From: a virus
Lineage: Duplodnaviria; Caudoviricetes
Reading direction: 5' to 3' (one strand)
Virus record (IMG/VR): IMGVR_UViG_3300008255_000015
Location: 1 to 51,492 of that record
DNA: 51,492 nt
Shown here in pieces: positions 24,019-51,135 of the stretch. The stretch's first letter is position 1. Each line of letters opens with the position of its first letter. A program made the position numbers and the translations under genes. The notes under the pieces were generated by a model. The model was not told the DNA's origin, did not search any database, and worked only from the letters and a program-made list of their open reading frames with translations.

Positions 24019-24149
24019 AGCGCCCAGATAACCAGGGCCGCTCCCGCTAGGATCATCGTCACCGAGAAGGCGATAACGACGGTCGCAGCCAGGAAGACTG
24101 TCCATCGAGGATACTTGTCGATGCGGGAAGGCGGGTCCCATTCACCCAT
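24015..24149 (-). CDS. 44-aa membrane peptide (not in ORF track)
   Basis: GGAGG RBS; MGEWDPPSRIDKYPRWTVFLAATVVIAFSVTMILAGAALVIWAL. Confidence 0.6.
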   Translation of the reverse strand: MGEWDPPSRIDKYPRWTVFLAATVVIAFSVTMILAGAALVIWAL

Positions 24150-24357
24150 TGTCGAATACCTCCACTTCGTCCTCCTCCTCATCAAGCCCCAGGGCTGAGA
24201 TCAACAGCTCAGGCTCGATCGATGTCACGGTGATGTAGTTATCGGCGTAGGCCCTGTGCTTCCGAAGGATGTCCCTCCGGTCTTGAGCCCCTTTCTGAGA
24301 TGTGAACACCTCGGGCTCGAGGCCATAGGCCCTCGTGTAAAGGAACCAGAACTTCAT
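24142..24357 (-). CDS. Hypothetical protein
   Basis: TGATG coupling, GGAGG RBS. Confidence 0.65.
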   Translation of the reverse strand: MKFWFLYTRAYGLEPEVFTSQKGAQDRRDILRKHRAYADNYITVTSIEPELLISALGLDEEEDEVEVFDNG

Positions 24358-25330: not shown

Positions 25331-25671
25331 GAGGAGCTCCTCGAATTGCCGGCGAAGAACATCTCCCACTTGCGTCGGAGGTGAATCATGAGGTTGTACC
25401 TCTCCATGAACTCTCGGTCCGCTTTCTTGCACTTGTGCAGGCGGTAGACGGGACGACCGTCACCGGGGAGAGCCCCGATCTTGTAGTAGACAGTGCCCAT
25501 CGTAATCTTCCCCGTCCGGCCATCAACTTTGTCGATTGTGTAGCCGCATGTGTGGGGGAAATCATCCCAGCGGACAGATCGCCAGTTAGCCCAGCGATAG
25601 GCGGCGTGGAAGACCAGCTGGTCACATGCCCTGCATCGTGTCTCGGGCTCCTTAACCGTGGTGGTAGTCAT
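25327..25671 (-). CDS. Hypothetical Zn-binding protein
   Basis: GGAAAGGGGCA RBS after promoter; CRAC...H.C. Confidence 0.7.
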   Translation of the reverse strand: MTTTTVKEPETRCRACDQLVFHAAYRWANWRSVRWDDFPHTCGYTIDKVDGRTGKITMGTVYYKIGALPGDGRPVYRLHKCKKADREFMERYNLMIHLRRKWEMFFAGNSRSSS

Positions 25672-25699
25672 GCTTTAGTTTGCCCCTTTCCATAGCATA

Positions 25700-25728
25700 A
25701 TGCTATAAGACGGGGGTCCTTGTGTCAA
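25700..25728 (-). promoter_or_regulatory. Sigma-A-type promoter
   Basis: TTGACA-17-TAGCAT. Confidence 0.75.
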
Positions 25729-30645: not shown

Positions 30646-30688
30646 GTGTGCCCCTTTCCTTGTTGTTTGATCGATTGATCATAGTGGT

Positions 30689-30717
30689 ATTCTATCAACC
30701 CGTTCTACCGGCGTCAA
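30689..30717 (-). promoter_or_regulatory. Sigma-A-type promoter
   Basis: TTGACG-17-TAGAAT, then ATGATCAATCGATCA. Confidence 0.8.
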
Positions 30718-33680: not shown

Positions 33681-33722
33681 TAGGCCCCTTTCTTCAAGTG
33701 TTGTTGCATCAAGTGAAGTATC

Positions 33723-35234: not shown

Positions 35235-35277
35235 GTTGCCCCTTTCGGTGTCGAGATGATCGATTGATCATGGGTTA

Positions 35278-35306
35278 ATTCTATCAACCCAGCATCTGCG
35301 AGTCAA
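35278..35306 (-). promoter_or_regulatory. Sigma-A-type promoter
   Basis: TTGACT-17-TAGAAT, then ATGATCAATCGATCAT. Confidence 0.8.
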
Positions 35307-36550: not shown

Positions 36551-36590
36551 AACAAAGAGGGCCCCCCGGCGGAAAGGGGACCCTCCTCGG
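36551..36590 (-). terminator. Intrinsic terminator
   Basis: GAGGGUCCCCU-UUCCGCC-GGGGGGCCCUC then UUUGUU. Confidence 0.75.
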
Positions 36591-37220: not shown

Positions 37221-37273
37221 GTTGGCCCCTTTCGTAGCGGAGGGCGGGTTGCCCCCTCATCGATAAGATCATG

Positions 37274-37576
37274 CTATCTGATGGGGTTATCAGCGTCAAC
37301 ACCTTTAAACGATGTTGCTCTGCCCCTTATATATGCGCTACGATTGCCGGCAGTGGCTCGTGCCACGAAGTCAAGTACCGCTTCATCCTTCGAGTGTCCG
37401 AGCTTAGCTTTCTCGGTCTCGGGCAGTAGGTCATGGAGAGTGTCAAGGAGTTTCAGCCGGACTAGAGCTTCAGCTTTCCACCTCTTCAAGTTCTGGACGT
37501 TACACAACCGACAAGGTCGGCCCAGGTAATCCGTGCCGGTGTCGTTGCAAATGTCACAGGGTGTGGAAGTGTTCAT
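37274..37576 (-). CDS. Hypothetical Zn-binding protein
   Basis: CDICNDTG...CRLC. Confidence 0.6.
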   Translation of the reverse strand: MNTSTPCDICNDTGTDYLGRPCRLCNVQNLKRWKAEALVRLKLLDTLHDLLPETEKAKLGHSKDEAVLDFVARATAGNRSAYIRGRATSFKGVDADNPIR

Positions 37577-38895: not shown

Positions 38896-39186
38896 TCAAT
38901 CATCGATTCCCAACTGCTGGAGCGCTTCCGAGGGCGAGCAAACTACTCGGGCTAACCCCCCGGCATCGTCGATCAACCCCAATACGTAATCTTGTCGAGC
39001 ACTAGTTCCTGCTCGATTCTCAGGTAGCTTCACCTCGAAGCCAAAGAACCTACCCTCGTAGCACCCGATGATGTCAGGCAACCCCGCCATCATGTGCTCA
39101 CTACCCCACACCTTGAAGCAGAAGACTCCATGAAGCCTTAGCTTCTGCATGATCGACCGACTCAGCTTAGACTCTCGTTGACTCAT
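38896..39186 (-). CDS. VRR-NUC domain nuclease (Holliday-junction resolvase-like)
   Basis: E..L, GLPDIIGC..GRFFGFEVK, Q, GG...VV.S. Confidence 0.9.
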   Translation of the reverse strand: MSQRESKLSRSIMQKLRLHGVFCFKVWGSEHMMAGLPDIIGCYEGRFFGFEVKLPENRAGTSARQDYVLGLIDDAGGLARVVCSPSEALQQLGIDD

Positions 39187-39205
39187 CGTTACTCCTTACA
39201 CAGAG

Positions 39206-39257
39206 GAAGAGCCCTGCCCGGGGGAAAGGGGCAGCAATACCCCAGGCAGAGCTCCTC
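39206..39257 (-). ncRNA. RNA hairpin with loop complementary to the phage early RBS
   Basis: 18-bp stem (3 G-U, fully paired only on minus strand); loop UAUUGCUGCCCCUUUC. Confidence 0.55.
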
Positions 39258-39345: not shown

Positions 39346-39978
39346 TCAGACGTCGTCGATGTCAAGCTCCTCGAGCTCATCGTCGTCGACTTCAACCTTC
39401 TTCGCCTTCTTCTTCTTCTTGGGCGGAGCAGGCTCGTCGTCTTCGTCATCATCGTCATCGTCATCTTCTTCGACGGGGGCGGGCTTGGCCTTCTTCTTCT
39501 TGGGCGCCGGAGCCTCATCCTCATCGTCGTCATCCTCGGTGTCCTCGACTTCGTCATCGAGGTCTTCATCCTCATCGTCGACCTGGTCACCCAGCTCGCT
39601 GACGGGGAAGGTGGCAACGACGTTGGACTGCAGCTTGCCGTCGTATTCGTCGTCATCCAGGGTCACGGCGATGGTCTTACCCACCAGGACGTTCGGGTTG
39701 ACCTTGACCTTCTTCTTCGGGACGTTGATCCCAGCAGCGACCAGGAGGTTGCGAACCTTCCAGAACTGATTCTCCTGATGCTTGCAGTAGTAAGGGTAGG
39801 TACCCGCTCCCGCCTGAATCGTGAAGAGCCACTGGCCGATGCCATCCTTCTTGGAGGGTGCATCCTCGACTTTCGTGACCTTCGCCTTGTAATCACCAGC
39901 GGGCTGGTGCTTCTTGTTGAAGATACCGCCGCCATCCTTCACGTTTGTGAAGTCAACGACTACTTCCTTTGCTGCCAT
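39346..39978 (-). CDS. Putative ssDNA-binding protein (DUF669-like) with acidic and basic tail
   Basis: PAGDYKAKVTKVE OB-like start; follows Sak4-like ATPase; strong codon bias. Confidence 0.75.
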   Translation of the reverse strand: MAAKEVVVDFTNVKDGGGIFNKKHQPAGDYKAKVTKVEDAPSKKDGIGQWLFTIQAGAGTYPYYCKHQENQFWKVRNLLVAAGINVPKKKVKVNPNVLVGKTIAVTLDDDEYDGKLQSNVVATFPVSELGDQVDDEDEDLDDEVEDTEDDDDEDEAPAPKKKKAKPAPVEEDDDDDDDEDDEPAPPKKKKKAKKVEVDDDELEELDIDDV

Positions 39979-39979
39979 A

Positions 39980-40795
39980 TCAGGCTTCTCCTTCAGTCAT
40001 GAGTCCTACCAGCTTTGGCAGGGTTGGTGCTTTGATCATCTCGGGCAGAGCGAAGTCGCTCCTGAAGCCCGTGTCATATCTCTCGTGCAGTCCTATCTGC
40101 AGCCTTCGTTGGGTATACTTGGTCACCCCATCTTTCTTTGTTACTTGGACAGTGTATAGCCTCCCGATGACATCAACGAGGGAGTTGACTGCCCCTCTGA
40201 CTGCGTTGGGAAGATCTGGTACGTAGTAGGCATCCACCTCTTGTTCGATGTCGTCATCGTCGTCGAAGGGAGTACCCGTGATCATCTTCTCCTGGGCTGT
40301 GTAGCAAACGTTCATCGGCAGGGTGTGGAAGTTGGTAAGCAGTTGCTTCATCATCTCCCCCGACTTGCCGTAGTCTCGCTGCTGCACGAACCCGGGCTGG
40401 CGATCCAAGTCTCTCAGCTCTTGAACCTTCATGACATATTTCAGTGCCATGTTGTTCATCCGGGTCAGCCCATCGGGTGAGACCCAGGTGAAAGGAGTCG
40501 AGGATTCGCCTTGCTTGATGTGGTTCGGACTGAGCTTGCCCGTCCTCAAAGCTCCGTAAACCTCCTGGATATCTTCCCATCGTTCAACGGGCCACACCCA
40601 GGGGTCGAGGTGCTTCATCAAGTCCGTACCATGCTCAGGGTCAATGACGAGGGTATCGTCAATCCCTGCGCTGGTAGCAAACCGGGTCTTGCCCTTCTTA
40701 TTGCGGGCGTAGACCAGGATCTTACGATAGCCTTCGACATCACTTGGTCGGTGAGCCTTCTTCTTGGCCAGCGCAAGATAGTCCTTGTCGGCCAT
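39980..40795 (-). CDS. AAA_24 / Sak4-like ATPase
   Basis: KILVYARNKKGKT, IDPEHG, DGLT, RDYG, VDVIGRL. Confidence 0.85.
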   Translation of the reverse strand: MADKDYLALAKKKAHRPSDVEGYRKILVYARNKKGKTRFATSAGIDDTLVIDPEHGTDLMKHLDPWVWPVERWEDIQEVYGALRTGKLSPNHIKQGESSTPFTWVSPDGLTRMNNMALKYVMKVQELRDLDRQPGFVQQRDYGKSGEMMKQLLTNFHTLPMNVCYTAQEKMITGTPFDDDDDIEQEVDAYYVPDLPNAVRGAVNSLVDVIGRLYTVQVTKKDGVTKYTQRRLQIGLHERYDTGFRSDFALPEMIKAPTLPKLVGLMTEGEA

Positions 40796-41884
40796 CTAGT
40801 TGTCCCCTTTCAGTCCAGGATTGCGCTCGTCCTGGTAGTAATCCATCGGATCGCCAACCTTGTACCGTTGACGGATAAGGGGCTGAGCGTTACCCCCGAA
40901 GAGCTCCATAGTGCAGATGTCAGTGTAACTGCACATGAACTTGCAGTTGTTGCTGGGGTTACGTTCGATGCGATCAGGCTTGTCCCAGTGATAACCATGC
41001 ATACGAAGGTGAGTCATATAAGCCTCGACTGCTACCCGCTTCAGCATCGCTGGAGACTTCTCGAGGATGTCGCGTCGGAAGAAGCTCGAGGTCGATGCTT
41101 CCCCCGGTACATATCGCTGAGACTTCAGGAACCGAAGTTGGTCGGCATAGTCATGAGGGTCAAGCCCATACTTCTTGATCGCCGCAGCCATTGTAGGAAA
41201 GTCAGTGTCGACCTTCGACCGACTCAGTCGGGAGCCATCCTGAAGAAGCTTCGGAATCGATGGAGGCTTCGACCGGAGGTAGTTCCAAATGTGGCCCTGT
41301 ACTGGAATGCCCAGCTTGATCGCAGCCCAGATGTATAGGGCGGACTGAGCGTCAAGGATTCGGAACTCGATGCCGGGCAGCGTCTTATGGTTCTTATGAT
41401 CAACGATCCATAGCCCATATTGGTTCTCGATCAGGAGGTCAACCTTGCCTCGATAGATTGAGCCATCCGGCAGTTCGACTTCGAGCGTGAACTCAGCCTC
41501 GTGAACGATCCAGGGGTCGTCCTTGTAATGCCAGATGTAGGATCGCATCATCCGAGCACAGTCACGCGGCAAATCACCCACCGCCTCCTTCTCTTCGTCG
41601 AAGAGCTTAGAGTACTCGATGGTGAGCTCATCATTCCGGGCTTTCCAGTCGCCGCCCTTGTGATGGACCTCGAGCAGCTCATGCATCCAAGTACCCCACC
41701 GTAGCGGCTTACCCATGATCTGGGGCTTCAACCGAAGTACGTACTTGTAGTACGCTTGTTGAGGGCACATCCTCATCGTCTTCAACATGGAGTGGGTGGT
41801 GATCAGCTTGCCCGTCTCAGGATCTCTGTAGAGATCTACCGATGGGGGTAACGGTTCTGACTTCACCCTGATGTTCTTACCCAT
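40796..41884 (-). CDS. PD-(D/E)XK Cas4/RecB-like exonuclease
   Basis: THS...CP, GTWMHELLE, GKVDLL, IVDHK, QSALY, C...CSY..IC; promoter TTGACC-18-TATGAT at 41908-41937. Confidence 0.9.
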   Translation of the reverse strand: MGKNIRVKSEPLPPSVDLYRDPETGKLITTHSMLKTMRMCPQQAYYKYVLRLKPQIMGKPLRWGTWMHELLEVHHKGGDWKARNDELTIEYSKLFDEEKEAVGDLPRDCARMMRSYIWHYKDDPWIVHEAEFTLEVELPDGSIYRGKVDLLIENQYGLWIVDHKNHKTLPGIEFRILDAQSALYIWAAIKLGIPVQGHIWNYLRSKPPSIPKLLQDGSRLSRSKVDTDFPTMAAAIKKYGLDPHDYADQLRFLKSQRYVPGEASTSSFFRRDILEKSPAMLKRVAVEAYMTHLRMHGYHWDKPDRIERNPSNNCKFMCSYTDICTMELFGGNAQPLIRQRYKVGDPMDYYQDERNPGLKGDN

Positions 41885-41923
41885 GGATTGCCCCTTTCTG
41901 ATGGTTAATCATATCGCACAAGA

Positions 41924-42736
41924 TCATCGAGGGTCAATTTCCCCGTACTCGTACTGATGTCGGAGCTGATGCCACCCAGGGAAGTTGCCCAAGATCGGCT
42001 GGTCTCTCAAGGGTGTGGCGACATGTTCAAGCGGACTCCAATGGCCAGGGTCAGCTGAGACTAGTCGCTCGAACAGCTTGATATCCTCTTCGATATCTCG
42101 TTTGCCGTCATGGGTAAGGTAGCTTACTCGGGCGCATCGTGCAGCACTAACCTTACGAGCTGCGTGCAGATCAAGCCCTACATCTACCATAGGATCGATA
42201 TAGGGTAGATGCCAGGCTCCAGGCCGCAGGACCCGAGGAGTTGAGTGTGTGTACGCTTCCCACATTGCGTCAGCAGCCATACGAATCTCAGGTTGAGCTA
42301 GCGGGCTACGTCGCTGGTGGAAGAAGTTGACCCACTCAGTTGAACTAACAATCACTGTGTGCCACATGAATGGTTCCAGTAGCCGGTTGACAACGGATTT
42401 GTGAATCCCGAGGTCTACCAAGGCTCGAGCATGTCGAATAGCCATCTCGGCAGCTGAATTCCACACATCGATTGCTACTGTGAAGTCTTCAATCTCTGAG
42501 CCCCCTTGCATTCCTGGTTGTTCGAGGGGCCAACTTACCGGGTAGGCCAAGTCTTTCTCGATCCGCTCAATCTGTTTCCGAACAGGGATGGCTCGGCTTG
42601 AGGCGCTGTTTCGACTGAAGACTCGGTGGGTGTTGAACTCGGCAAGAACGAAGCGGTGCATCGTCACTTCCATCGTGGTCAAACGACTACCGCCGGGTGC
42701 CACTGAGTCGGCAATCACTTTGGCTTGGGGGTTCAT
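41924..42736 (-). CDS. thyX: Flavin-dependent thymidylate synthase
   Basis: EFNTHRVFSRNSASSRAIP, HKSVVNRLLEPF, AQPEI, SAARCARVSY, HWSPLEH. Confidence 0.9.
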   Translation of the reverse strand: MNPQAKVIADSVAPGGSRLTTMEVTMHRFVLAEFNTHRVFSRNSASSRAIPVRKQIERIEKDLAYPVSWPLEQPGMQGGSEIEDFTVAIDVWNSAAEMAIRHARALVDLGIHKSVVNRLLEPFMWHTVIVSSTEWVNFFHQRRSPLAQPEIRMAADAMWEAYTHSTPRVLRPGAWHLPYIDPMVDVGLDLHAARKVSAARCARVSYLTHDGKRDIEEDIKLFERLVSADPGHWSPLEHVATPLRDQPILGNFPGWHQLRHQYEYGEIDPR

Positions 42737-50984: not shown

Positions 50985-51016
50985 TGTTTGCCCCTTTCCG
51001 AGTAGCCGATGCGTTA

Positions 51017-51135
51017 ATCATAATGCGCCCGCACGAGGGAATCAACTTAATCGTTCCACTACGTAACCTACCCTGTCGTAACTAGAACAAGTTATTCTCG
51101 TCACCCTTGACGATTGGCACCTTAGCAATTATAGT
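51017..51135. promoter_or_regulatory. Divergent sigma-A-type promoters
   Basis: Minus: TTGATT-17-TATGAT (51017-51045); plus: TTGACG-17-TATAGT (51107-51135). Confidence 0.75.

What the first reader, a model, noticed from the sequence alone, without database searches (positions are those of the whole stretch)
39206..39257. Candidate anti-RBS RNA switch: hairpin loop is the exact complement of the phage early-gene RBS
Seen: between the SSB-like and VRR-NUC genes the minus-strand RNA forms an uninterrupted 18-bp stem (GAGGAGCUCUGCCUGGGG/CCCCGGGCAGGGCUCUUC). Its 3 G-U pairs would be A-C mismatches on the other strand. The 16-nt loop UAUUGCUGCCCCUUUC is larger than usual for a terminator. GCCCCUUUC pairs perfectly with GAAAGGGGC, the RBS of the genes starting at 25671, 30645, 33680, 35234, 37220, 41884 and 50984 (five extend to GAAAGGGGCA). 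Structural and lysis genes use AAGGAG/GGAGG and would escape. Inference: a processed or 3'-UTR RNA from the recombination operon, whose own first gene carries the target, may shut off a whole class of early mRNAs by loop-RBS pairing, giving a translational early-to-late switch. I know of no described equivalent but cannot search the literature.
Basis: partly seen in the sequence, partly recalled or inferred. Interest (0 to 1): 0.85.

Follow-up and report, generated by a model that had tools for sequence, protein, structure and literature searches.

The report
Phage hairpin mirroring early ribosome-binding tag
An uncultured actinobacterial-type phage tags the ribosome-binding sites of seven promoter-proximal early genes with one fixed sequence and keeps a single mirror copy in the open loop of a strong RNA hairpin, and tag and loop change together in related phages, so the two very probably pair to control translation, although no RNA has been observed.

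Summary
An 18-bp hairpin (39257..39206, minus strand) has a 16-nt loop whose last 9-10 bases are the exact complement of GAAAGGGGC(A). That word occurs 8 times on the gene strand, 7 of them at ribosome-binding sites, and once reversed, in the loop. The hairpin sits between an exonuclease-Sak4-SSB-like operon and a VRR-NUC gene.

Among relatives, 14 of 18 testable hairpins carry a loop complementary to ribosome-site tags in their own DNA. There are two unrelated sequence families: GAAAGGGGC / GCCCCUUUC and CGACCGAGGAG / CUCCUCGGUCG. Matched changes occur within each family. Stems vary but stay paired, and G-U outnumbers A-C 27:5, which points to the gene-strand RNA.

The tag behaves like the unexplained "start-associated sequences" (SAS) of cluster K mycobacteriophages. 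In Adephagia the single reversed SAS also lies in a hairpin loop.

No transcript data exist. Four relatives, phage Ekdilam and cluster EF do not fit. The early-to-late switch role is untested.

Earlier notes of this scan describe the same layout in other phages. My literature searches found no paper that makes this link.

The parts
39206..39257 (-). Stem-loop RNA: 5' arm 39257..39240, 16-nt loop 39239..39224, 3' arm 39223..39206. 18 bp including 3 G-U pairs.
   Evidence: longest and most stable of 34 stems; sense -34.9 vs antisense -24.6 kcal/mol
39224..39233 (-). Anti-tag core of the loop, UGCCCCUUUC. It lies flush against the 3' arm and is the exact complement of GAAAGGGGCA.
39187..39205 (-). 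Pyrimidine/U-rich tail CUCUGUGU, then the AAGGAG ribosome site of the VRR-NUC gene. The hairpin ends 19 nt before that start codon.
41890..41898 (-). Tag GAAAGGGGC(A) at the RBS of the PD-(D/E)XK exonuclease, the first gene of the operon that ends at the hairpin.
   Evidence: duplex -18.3 kcal/mol
41908..41937 (-). Sigma-70-like promoter match TTGACC-18-TATGAT, 9 nt upstream of the tag. The inferred leader is very short.
   Evidence: spacing read
50990..50998 (-). Tag at the RBS of a 138-aa protein of unknown function.
   Evidence: (promoter match 51045..51017)
37225..37233 (-). Tag at the RBS of a 126-aa HTH/excisionase-like protein.
35238..35246 (-). Tag at the RBS of a 64-aa protein.
   Evidence: promoter match 35306..35278; -19.1 kcal/mol
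33684..33692 (-). Tag at the RBS of the 693-aa RepB-primase/AAA_25 protein.
30650..30658 (-). Tag at the RBS of a 91-aa protein.
   Evidence: (promoter match 30717..30689)
25682..25690 (-). Tag at the RBS of a 114-aa protein.
   Evidence: (promoter match 25728..25700)
39346..41884 (-). Operon upstream of the hairpin: exonuclease (40796-41884), Sak4-like ATPase (39980-40795), and an acidic-tailed 'SSB-like' protein (39346-39978).
38896..39186 (-). VRR-NUC-type endonuclease gene directly downstream. It has no promoter match of its own, so it needs read-through of the hairpin.

Best explanation
The hairpin is an RNA element on the gene (minus) strand. It is a terminator-like, very stable stem-loop at the 3' end of the exonuclease-Sak4-SSB-like message.

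Its open loop is an antisense copy of the phage's private ribosome-site tag GAAAGGGGCA. This tag resembles a start-associated sequence (SAS) and heads seven promoter-proximal, short-leader messages, including the first gene of the hairpin's own operon.

I propose that the loop pairs with these tags over about 10 bp, at roughly -18 kcal/mol each, and so covers the Shine-Dalgarno region. This would lower translation of the tagged genes as the stable hairpin RNA builds up. It could act in trans on the whole tagged class and in cis on its own operon, in an icaR-like way.

Shown: the sequence relationship, its strand specificity, and its co-variation across relatives.

Inferred: that the RNA exists and persists, that pairing takes place, and that the effect is repression.
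For: 1. Complementarity in the window.
- The tag occurs 8 times forward and 1 time reversed against 0.42 expected.
- There are 6 gene-strand sites with at least 10 nt complementary to the loop, against a mean of 0.46 for shuffled loops; 7 of 5000 shuffles reach 6.
- Loop-RBS duplexes are -17.9 to -19.1 kcal/mol for the 7 tagged sites, against a mean of -8.7 for the other 71 called genes. The mean of the top 7 beats 300 of 300 shuffled loops.

2. Relatives found through the neighbouring VRR-NUC protein, not through the loop.
- 16 of 19 unique relatives, window included, have a hairpin at the same place.
- 7 loops are of type A (..GCC[C/U]CUUUC), 7 of type B (..CCUCGGUCG..), and 2 are other.

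3. Loop against the RBS of the operon's first gene in the same locus.
- Perfect complements are 10, 11, 10, 8 and 11 nt for the type A loci (window, L001, L002, L003, L173).
- They are 12, 13, 9 and 10 nt for the type B loci (L183, L184, L186, L190).
- Loops of one type against sites of the other type give only 3-6 nt.

4. Matched changes.
- GGGG/CCCC becomes GAGG/CCUC in L173.
- It becomes GGG/CCC in G003.
- CA/UG becomes CGA/UCG in L001 and L173.
- UCGACC/GGUCGA becomes CCGACC/GGUCGG in L190 and L275.
- It becomes UUGACC/GGUCAA in L274.

5. Prospective test. In a second set fetched after the idea was formed, 3 of 5 new hairpins (L272, L274, L275) match their own ribosome sites over 11-13 nt. 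In G007 the word GACCGAGGA is 6 forward and 1 reversed, and the reversed copy is the loop.

6. RNA-level selection.
- In the type A consensus fold, 7 of 15 pairs show compensatory changes.
- Non-cognate arms pair at 44%, and 3 of 240 non-cognate combinations are fully paired.
- G-U against A-C is 27:5 over 15 hairpins.

7. The RBS of the adjacent VRR-NUC gene stays an ordinary AAGGAG/GGAGG type in both families and does not follow the loop.

8. Parallel case. In mycobacteriophage Adephagia the SAS GGGATAGGAGCCC occurs 16 times forward and 1 time reversed. The reversed copy is the loop of a strong hairpin in the gene 92-93 gap (z -6.67). Published RNA-seq places the start of late transcription in that gap (PMC11373665, section 19).
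Against: - No transcript evidence of any kind: no RNA run is listed, and the DNA contigs that were laid added nothing.
- Per-genome statistics are weak outside G000 and G002. For sites of at least 10 nt, 640 of 5000 shuffles reach the observed count in G001 and 599 of 5000 in G003.
- Four of 18 testable hairpins do not fit. L174 has the loop ACAGCAAUC although its first gene carries GAAAGGGG. L177, L273 and L270 have no matching ribosome sites in the DNA seen. The stem therefore has a role that does not need the anti-tag.
- Within type B, 2 of 4 loops match another relative's first-gene site better than their own.
- Type B loops can fold partly on themselves, and the consensus fold of type B failed on the MAFFT alignment.
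- In Ekdilam the SAS is unchanged (12 exact copies) but the loop reads CCUCCUUCCCC, which breaks the centre of the pairing.
- Cluster EF phage AnnaSerena has 9 forward SAS copies and no reversed copy in bases 10000-56707.
- Pope et al. report a reversed site only for the four K1 phages they studied (passages).
- VRR-NUC has no promoter of its own, so the hairpin cannot be a complete terminator.
- The direction of the effect, repression or protection, is unknown.
Confidence: 0.55

Rival explanations
1. Cis-only 5'-3' pairing. The loop pairs only with the tag at the 5' end of its own roughly 2.7-kb operon message, as in icaR of Staphylococcus aureus. This would tune exonuclease translation or message stability. 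The other tagged genes would share the tag for unrelated reasons.
For: In 9 of 10 relatives where both ends of the operon are in hand, the first gene's ribosome site is complementary to the loop over 8-13 nt. L274 and L275 add 13 and 11 nt. The inferred leader is very short, so the tag sits at the 5' end of the message. The icaR precedent is from the abstract read.
Against: Six other tagged sites in the window pair equally well. In type B loci the best matches are sometimes on other genes, for example 17 nt in L188 at 1122, and on oppositely transcribed genes in L184 and L272. In Adephagia the loop is separated from gene 92 by a canonical terminator.
Confidence: 0.15
2. An ordinary intrinsic terminator or 3' stabiliser. 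The resemblance of its pyrimidine-rich loop to an anti-ribosome-site sequence would have no function.
For: The stem is GC-rich and is followed by a U/pyrimidine-rich tail like other hairpins of these phages. Four relatives keep the hairpin without a matching loop. A single 10-11-nt match is not rare per genome.
Against: The loop is 16-17 nt and conserved while the stem varies. Other terminator-like hairpins here have 6-7-nt loops. Loop and tag change together in two unrelated sequence families. The simple terminator scan, which allows loops of 3-8 nt, does not list this hairpin.
Confidence: 0.13
3. A DNA-level site. GAAAGGGGCA (or CGACCGAGGAG) would be bound as double-stranded DNA by a phage regulator just downstream of early promoters, with one further site in reverse orientation at the end of the operon.
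For: The tags follow promoter-like sequences. A double-strand binder would not care about orientation. Published work suspects protein binding at the neighbouring ESAS repeats (PMC3203893 passages; PMC11373665 section 19).
Against: The distance from tag to start codon is tight (2-9 nt), whereas the distance from the -10 box varies from 9 to about 38 nt. The reversed copy is always presented in the unpaired loop of a hairpin whose stem covaries. The G-U excess of 27:5 marks one RNA strand. The orientation bias is 8:1, 6:1 and 16:1.
Confidence: 0.08
4. The loop is a protein or ribosome-factor binding site, or a decoy resembling the 16S rRNA 3' tail, rather than a partner for messenger RNA.
For: The loop is C/U-rich like the anti-Shine-Dalgarno sequence (recalled, not tested). 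The Adephagia paper lists an Hfq-like fold for gp39 and speculates that gp51 acts on SAS genes.
Against: The matched positions extend beyond any Shine-Dalgarno core: CGACC 5' of GAGGAG, and C(G)A 3' of GAAAGGGG. They follow the phage's own tag rather than a constant rRNA sequence.
Confidence: 0.06

Closest known systems
Start-associated sequences (SAS/ESAS) of cluster K mycobacteriophages and cluster EF Microbacterium phages (PMC3203893; PMC7302621; PMC11373665; PMC12699233; passages read)
   Same: An over-conserved motif sits at the ribosome-site position, a few nt before the start, on a subset of non-structural genes. Many of these genes follow promoter-like sequences. Nearly all copies are in one orientation, with a single reversed copy not associated with a gene start. 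The function is stated as unknown up to 2025.
   Different: The motif sequence differs: GAAAGGGGCA here against GGGATAGGAGCCC (cluster K) and GGGAAAGGACCCC (cluster EF). It is shorter (9-10 nt against 13). No 17-bp inverted-repeat ESAS was examined here. In the passages I read, the papers do not connect the reversed copy with a hairpin loop. I saw that connection in Adephagia and 5 further K phages, not in the cluster EF phage AnnaSerena.
icaR mRNA 3'-UTR/Shine-Dalgarno pairing in Staphylococcus aureus (PMC3868564, abstract)
   Same: A C-rich motif in the 3' untranslated region pairs with the ribosome site of the same message and blocks initiation. This matches the layout of operon start and operon end seen here.
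   Different: icaR is a single bacterial gene with an experimentally shown interaction and RNase III cleavage. Here the target tag is shared by seven messages, the motif sits in a hairpin loop, and nothing has been tested.
Cuckoo/CcsR (ar14) and other C-rich-loop small RNAs (PMC4615179, passages)
   Same: Hairpins with highly variable stems carry a fixed pyrimidine loop motif that resembles an anti-Shine-Dalgarno sequence.
   Different: Those are bacterial, multi-hairpin, independently transcribed RNAs with one universal motif, CCUCCUCCC. Here there is one hairpin at an operon end, and its loop follows a phage-private tag that differs between lineages. There is no Rfam hit.
c4 antisense RNA of phages P1/P7 (PMC8198154, passages; the details of loop-target pairing are recalled)
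   Same: A phage antisense RNA is encoded on the same strand and in the same operon as its targets and blocks their expression.
   Different: c4 serves one operon (icd-ant) in immunity control. It is not homologous (no Rfam match). Its targets lie downstream, whereas here they lie upstream and elsewhere in the genome.

Membership tests
Start-associated sequences (SAS) as defined by Pope et al. 2011 | Identical motif at the RBS position, a few nt upstream of start codons, in many copies | tested here: met
   7 identical 9-mers lie 2-9 nt before starts; expected count 0.42
Start-associated sequences (SAS) as defined by Pope et al. 2011 | Restricted to non-structural genes, mostly after larger intergenic gaps or promoters | tested here: met
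   All 7 lie between 25671 and 50984. 6 of the 7 follow a promoter-scan hit. Structural genes use AAGGAG types.
Start-associated sequences (SAS) as defined by Pope et al. 2011 | One orientation, with at most a rare reversed copy that is not at a gene start | tested here: met
   8 forward, 1 reversed; no start codon follows the reversed copy
Start-associated sequences (SAS) as defined by Pope et al. 2011 | Conservation extends beyond what pairs with 16S rRNA | not testable with these tools
   The host and its 16S 3' tail are unknown. That the trailing C(A) lies outside the pairing rests on the recalled actinobacterial tail.
Start-associated sequences (SAS) as defined by Pope et al. 2011 | Sequence match to the K or EF consensus | tested here: not met
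   The motif is different. This is an analogue, not the same element.
Rho-independent terminator | GC-rich stem, short loop (3-8 nt), run of U | tested here: inconclusive
   Stem: met. Loop: 16 nt, so the scan does not list it. Tail: CUCUGUGU has 4 U in 8. The downstream gene lacks its own promoter.
Known RNA families (Rfam 15, including c4 RF01695, ar14, 6C) | Covariance-model match at gathering score | tested here: not met
   0 hits in the whole window. At E up to 10 there are only far-sub-threshold miRNA-like hairpin matches.
Trans-acting antisense small RNA | A discrete, stable transcript (own promoter or processing) that pairs with its targets | not testable with these tools
   There is no conserved promoter before the hairpin and no RNA run is listed. 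Pairing potential is shown only in silico.
icaR-type 5'-3' UTR interaction | A 3'-UTR motif complementary to the SD of the same mRNA | tested here: met
   10 nt in the window, and 8-13 nt in 9 of 10 relatives with both operon ends in hand. A single transcript is inferred from the absence of internal promoter hits.

The most novel reading that the evidence does not exclude
Start-associated sequences, unexplained since 2011, may be the target half of a general phage RNA circuit. The phage would write one private tag on the ribosome sites of a gene class. It would also keep a single antisense copy in the loop of a stable hairpin, either at an operon end (as here) or at the head of the late transcript (as in Adephagia). 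One short RNA would then set the translation of the whole class. Tag and loop would be free to drift together, giving lineage-specific 'addresses'.
Probability: 0.4. Interest if true: 0.85.

Novelty: new variant of a known kind. Interest (0 to 1): 0.72.

Why it matters
If the pairing is real, it gives a concrete and testable partner for the start-associated sequences of actinobacteriophages. Papers from 2011 to 2025 call their role unknown.

It would also show a compact way for a phage to control a whole class of messages after transcription with one hairpin and no protein regulator.

Because the same layout is present in Adephagia, the idea can be tested directly. Adephagia is a cultured, engineerable phage of the laboratory strain Mycobacterium smegmatis, and RNA-seq data for it already exist.

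Private tag/anti-tag pairs that change together would also be useful orthogonal parts for translation control in Actinobacteria.

Tried and rejected
- Plus-strand RBS reading. Rejected: there is no start codon within 15 nt of the plus-strand GAAAGGGGCA, and no conserved antisense start in either family (reading).
- Own promoter for the hairpin. A TACAAT sits 1 nt before the stem in the window, but it has no usable -35 and is not conserved in L001-L003. Dropped.
- The loop sequestering the neighbouring VRR-NUC ribosome site. Rejected: that site does not follow the loop.
- Loop-pattern scans of viral contigs. My first pattern wrongly required 1-2 extra bases, so it missed the window type. It gave 61 stretches, of which only 1 (G001) is a hairpin. 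The corrected pattern gave 18 stretches, of which only 1 (G002) is a hairpin. The rest look like chance matches.
- Megablast against cultured phages found nothing. Distant blastn found only relatives at about 67% identity.
  - Huwbert has a hairpin with a 30-nt C-rich loop but no evident tag.
  - Shrew's hairpin loop is not an anti-tag.
- A family B region searched against cultured phages also gave only distant hits.
- Genome contigs hold no relative of the VRR-NUC protein.
- RNA evidence: no RNA holder is listed. Laying four DNA runs gave only identical or unrelated pieces.
- The type B consensus fold failed because MAFFT anchored on the loop and misaligned the arms.
- My 8-nt site test with a lenient 'near a start' rule was too weak to be useful (7, 144, 249 and 41 of 1000 shuffles reached the observed count). 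I replaced it with the tests.
- Supplementary files of the SAS papers, which list the sites and include Fig S3 with the reversed sites, are closed. I could not see how the authors drew the reversed copy.
- The ZoeJ RNA-seq paper cited by others was not in the library listings I saw.
- 'Not in print' rests on searches only.
Full report
**What is there**

The window is a complete 51,492-bp virus record with direct terminal repeats. Almost all genes lie on the minus strand: 75 of 78 in my rough gene call.

Read on that strand, bases 39257..39206 form an uninterrupted 18-bp stem with three G-U pairs around the 16-nt loop UAUUGCUGCCCCUUUC. RNAfold returns exactly this structure. Of 34 contiguous stems of at least 11 bp on the gene strand, it is the longest and the most stable (-34.9 kcal/mol).

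The hairpin lies 86 nt after the stop of an acidic-tailed 'SSB-like' gene. That gene ends an operon made of a PD-(D/E)XK exonuclease, a Sak4-like ATPase and the SSB-like protein. The hairpin ends 19 nt before a VRR-NUC-type endonuclease gene. The same gene order is annotated in Microbacterium phage Huwbert and Curtobacterium phage Shrew. No Rfam family matches, and the window has no tRNA gene.

**The tag**

GAAAGGGGC occurs 8 times on the gene strand and once on the other strand, which is the loop. The expected count is 0.42.

Seven gene-strand copies sit 2-9 nt before start codons: the exonuclease, an HTH protein, the RepB-primase/AAA protein and four small proteins. Six of the seven follow a hit of the sigma-70-type scan. 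The seventh (33692) has a weaker look-alike that I read. The eighth copy (24295) is inside an ORF.

Near-copies of 8 nt precede the Sak4-like gene and two others. Structural and lysis genes mostly use AAGGAG/GGAGG. Several other promoter-like sites are followed directly by ATG, which is a leaderless layout.

**Is the complementarity more than chance?**

Within this genome, yes.
- There are 6 sites of at least 10 nt against 0.46 for shuffled loops; 7 of 5000 shuffles reach 6.
- Predicted duplexes are -17.9 to -19.1 kcal/mol for the seven tagged sites, against -8.7 on average for the other 71 genes.
- The top-7 mean lies beyond all 300 shuffled loops.
- One untagged candidate start (21262) also scores -18.2.

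In relatives taken singly the statistics are weak: 640 of 5000 shuffles reach the observed count in G001 and 599 of 5000 in G003. The argument therefore has to rest on comparison across relatives.

**Relatives**

I collected relatives through the VRR-NUC protein, so the loop was not used to pick them. After removing duplicates there are 19 including the window. Sixteen have a strong hairpin in the same place. L005/G005, L176 and L181 have a different upstream context.

The loops fall into two classes.
- Type A (7 loci): UAUUG..GCC[C/U]CUUUC, or the shorter UUAUGCCCUUUU.
- Type B (7 loci): a pyrimidine run followed by CCUCGGUCG(A/G).
- Two loops are different (L174, L177).

The stems differ in sequence but stay paired.
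- The consensus fold of type A has 15 pairs, 7 of them with compensatory changes.
- Arms from different loci pair at only 44%, and 3 of 240 combinations are fully paired.
- When both G-U and A-C are allowed, G-U outnumbers A-C 27 to 5 over 15 hairpins, and the sense strand is usually the more stable one.

This points to selection on the gene-strand RNA, not on duplex DNA.

**Loop and tag move together**

For every locus that includes the start of the upstream operon, I compared the loop with the 25 nt before the exonuclease start.
- Type A gives perfect complements of 10, 11, 10, 8 and 11 nt (window, L001, L002, L003, L173).
- Type B gives 12, 13, 9 and 10 nt (L183, L184, L186, L190).
- L174 gives 5 nt; its loop has no anti-tag.
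- Loops of one type against sites of the other type give 3-6 nt.

Within type A the cognate pair is the best or joint best in 5 of 5. Within type B this holds in only 2 of 4.

The specific co-changes are:
- GAAAGGGGC/GCCCCUUUC becomes GAAAGAGGC/GCCUCUUUC in L173;
- it becomes (G)AAAGGGC/GCCCUUU in G003, which has no GAAAGGGG anywhere;
- ..GGCA/UGCC.. becomes ..GGCGA/UCGCC.. in L001 and L173.

Other promoter-proximal genes carry the tag too, some on the opposite strand. Examples are L184 at 5620 and L188 at 1122, the latter with 17 nt. The ribosome site of the adjacent VRR-NUC gene stays ordinary in both families.

**A prospective test**

After forming this view I fetched a second set through a type B VRR-NUC protein. 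Five new loci have a hairpin.
- Three (L272, L274, L275) match ribosome sites in their own DNA over 11-13 nt.
- L274 shows a new co-change: UUGACC in the site with GGUCAA in the loop.
- In G007, the record of L274, GACCGAGGA is 6 forward and 1 reversed, and the reversed copy is the loop. Four of the six forward copies are at ribosome sites and two are inside genes.
- Two loci fail. L273 has a loop UUUUCCUUCCCAGUUUUUC with no matching gene class in its 60.6-kb record, and L270 shows no match.

Overall, 14 of 18 testable hairpins fit and 4 do not. Three more (L175, L180, L182) are on contigs too short to test.

**Link to published start-associated sequences**

Before I opened the scan's earlier notes, the tag reminded me of the SAS of cluster K mycobacteriophages.
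- Pope et al. 2011 (passages) describe a 13-bp motif at ribosome sites of non-structural genes. [quoted passage not shown] They leave open whether an RNA or a protein binds it.
- Papers from 2020, 2024 and 2025 still call the role unknown.

I fetched Adephagia. The motif is 16 forward and 1 reversed. The reversed copy is the 10-nt loop CCUCCUAUCC of a strong two-tier hairpin in the gene 92-93 gap. Six of eight aligned cluster K phages keep that loop, and 4 of 16 stem pairs show compensatory changes. [quoted passage not shown] In Adephagia the anti-tag may therefore ride on the late leader.

Points against generality:
- Ekdilam keeps 12 exact SAS copies but has a loop with two central mismatches.
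- ShedlockHolmes (K3) has another loop.
- The cluster EF phage AnnaSerena shows 9 forward copies and no reversed copy in the 46.7 kb examined.

**How it most likely works**

Shown:
- a stable, strand-specific stem presenting a conserved single-stranded loop;
- a loop complementary to a private ribosome-site tag;
- co-variation of the two.

Inferred:
- The hairpin is transcribed as the 3' end of the operon message. No promoter hit lies between 41908 and the hairpin.
- It survives as a 3' fragment because of its stem.
- It pairs with tagged leaders.

The anti-tag always lies at the 3' side of the loop, flush with the stem, behind a 6-9-nt pyrimidine linker. This arrangement would let the new helix stack on the stem; that is my inference.

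Covering the Shine-Dalgarno region should lower initiation. The result would be delayed negative feedback on the tagged class, including the operon's own exonuclease. A cis-only, icaR-like reading (abstract) and a protective rather than repressive effect remain open.

Because VRR-NUC has no promoter of its own, the hairpin must let some transcription through.

**Comparison and novelty**

By mechanism the closest known cases are the icaR 3'-UTR/SD pairing, C-rich-loop small RNAs such as the cuckoo family (passages), and the same-operon c4 antisense RNA of P1 (passages). The hairpin is a member of none of these families.

The tag meets the descriptive criteria of an SAS but not the sequence.

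My searches found no paper that links SAS to an antisense hairpin:
- 3 papers;
- 20 of 255 listed;
- 1 paper;
- 15 of 23 listed.

The library lacks most subscription journals, and supplements were closed.

Earlier notes of this scan describe the same layout in many other phages, and some already mention the reversed cluster K site. This finding is therefore a further, well-supported instance and not a first sighting within the scan.

What this window adds:
- two sequence families with co-changes;
- a prospective test;
- the strand-asymmetry count;
- a direct check in Adephagia.

**Verdict**

I put the probability that loop-tag RNA pairing is functional at about 0.55 in the stated form, plus 0.15 for the cis-only form. 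It is a new variant of a known kind. Interest: 0.72.

Noticed in passing
window 45425, 36488, 34086, 28253 (minus strand); 27205, 28480 (plus strand): Start codons lie 6-7 nt after a TATAAT/CATAAT-type -10 box. This suggests leaderless messages, a second class of promoter-proximal genes without the tag.
   Followed up: partly
window 24287-24295 (minus strand): An eighth copy of GAAAGGGGC lies inside the ORF 24357..24142 with no start codon after it. It could be a non-functional copy or an internal target.
   Followed up: no
L001:2826, L175:558; window 39969-39976: The 5' half of type A loops (UAUUGYUS) is complementary to spacer-plus-start sequences GAACAAUAUG and GAGCAAUAUG of other genes in two relatives. 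In the window, 8 nt of the loop match GGCAGCAA right after the SSB-like start codon. The loop may carry a second, weaker address.
   Followed up: partly
L174:2931-2973: This is the one close relative whose loop lacks the anti-tag. Read on the opposite strand, its loop is GAUUGCUGU, which resembles the 5' half of type A loops. It has more A-C than G-U pairs and is more stable on the antisense strand. The hairpin may have been inverted.
   Followed up: no
G001:36931 (= L001:7942): The ribosome site GAAAGGGGUUAACAAUG could pair with 16 of the 17 loop bases of that phage, counting two G-U pairs, right through the start codon.
   Followed up: partly
L255:46500-46545 (Adephagia, gene 92-93 gap): Four tandem copies of a 10-bp unit (CCGCCGACGC-like) lie between the gene 92 terminator and the two hairpins, near the place where the 2024 paper puts the start of late transcription.
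   Followed up: no
L264:1322-1350 (AnnaSerena, upstream of gene 20): A small hairpin pairs GUCCUU with the AAGGAC ribosome site of a structural gene. This is a local, cis anti-RBS hairpin rather than a loop-displayed one.
   Followed up: no
window 36553-36589; G001:36569-36602, 37351-37378: Other strong intergenic hairpins of these phages have 4-7-nt loops and the same kind of U/G-rich tail (UUGUGUAG, GCUUUGUAG). These look like the ordinary terminators of the group.
   Followed up: no
[not shown]
   Followed up: no
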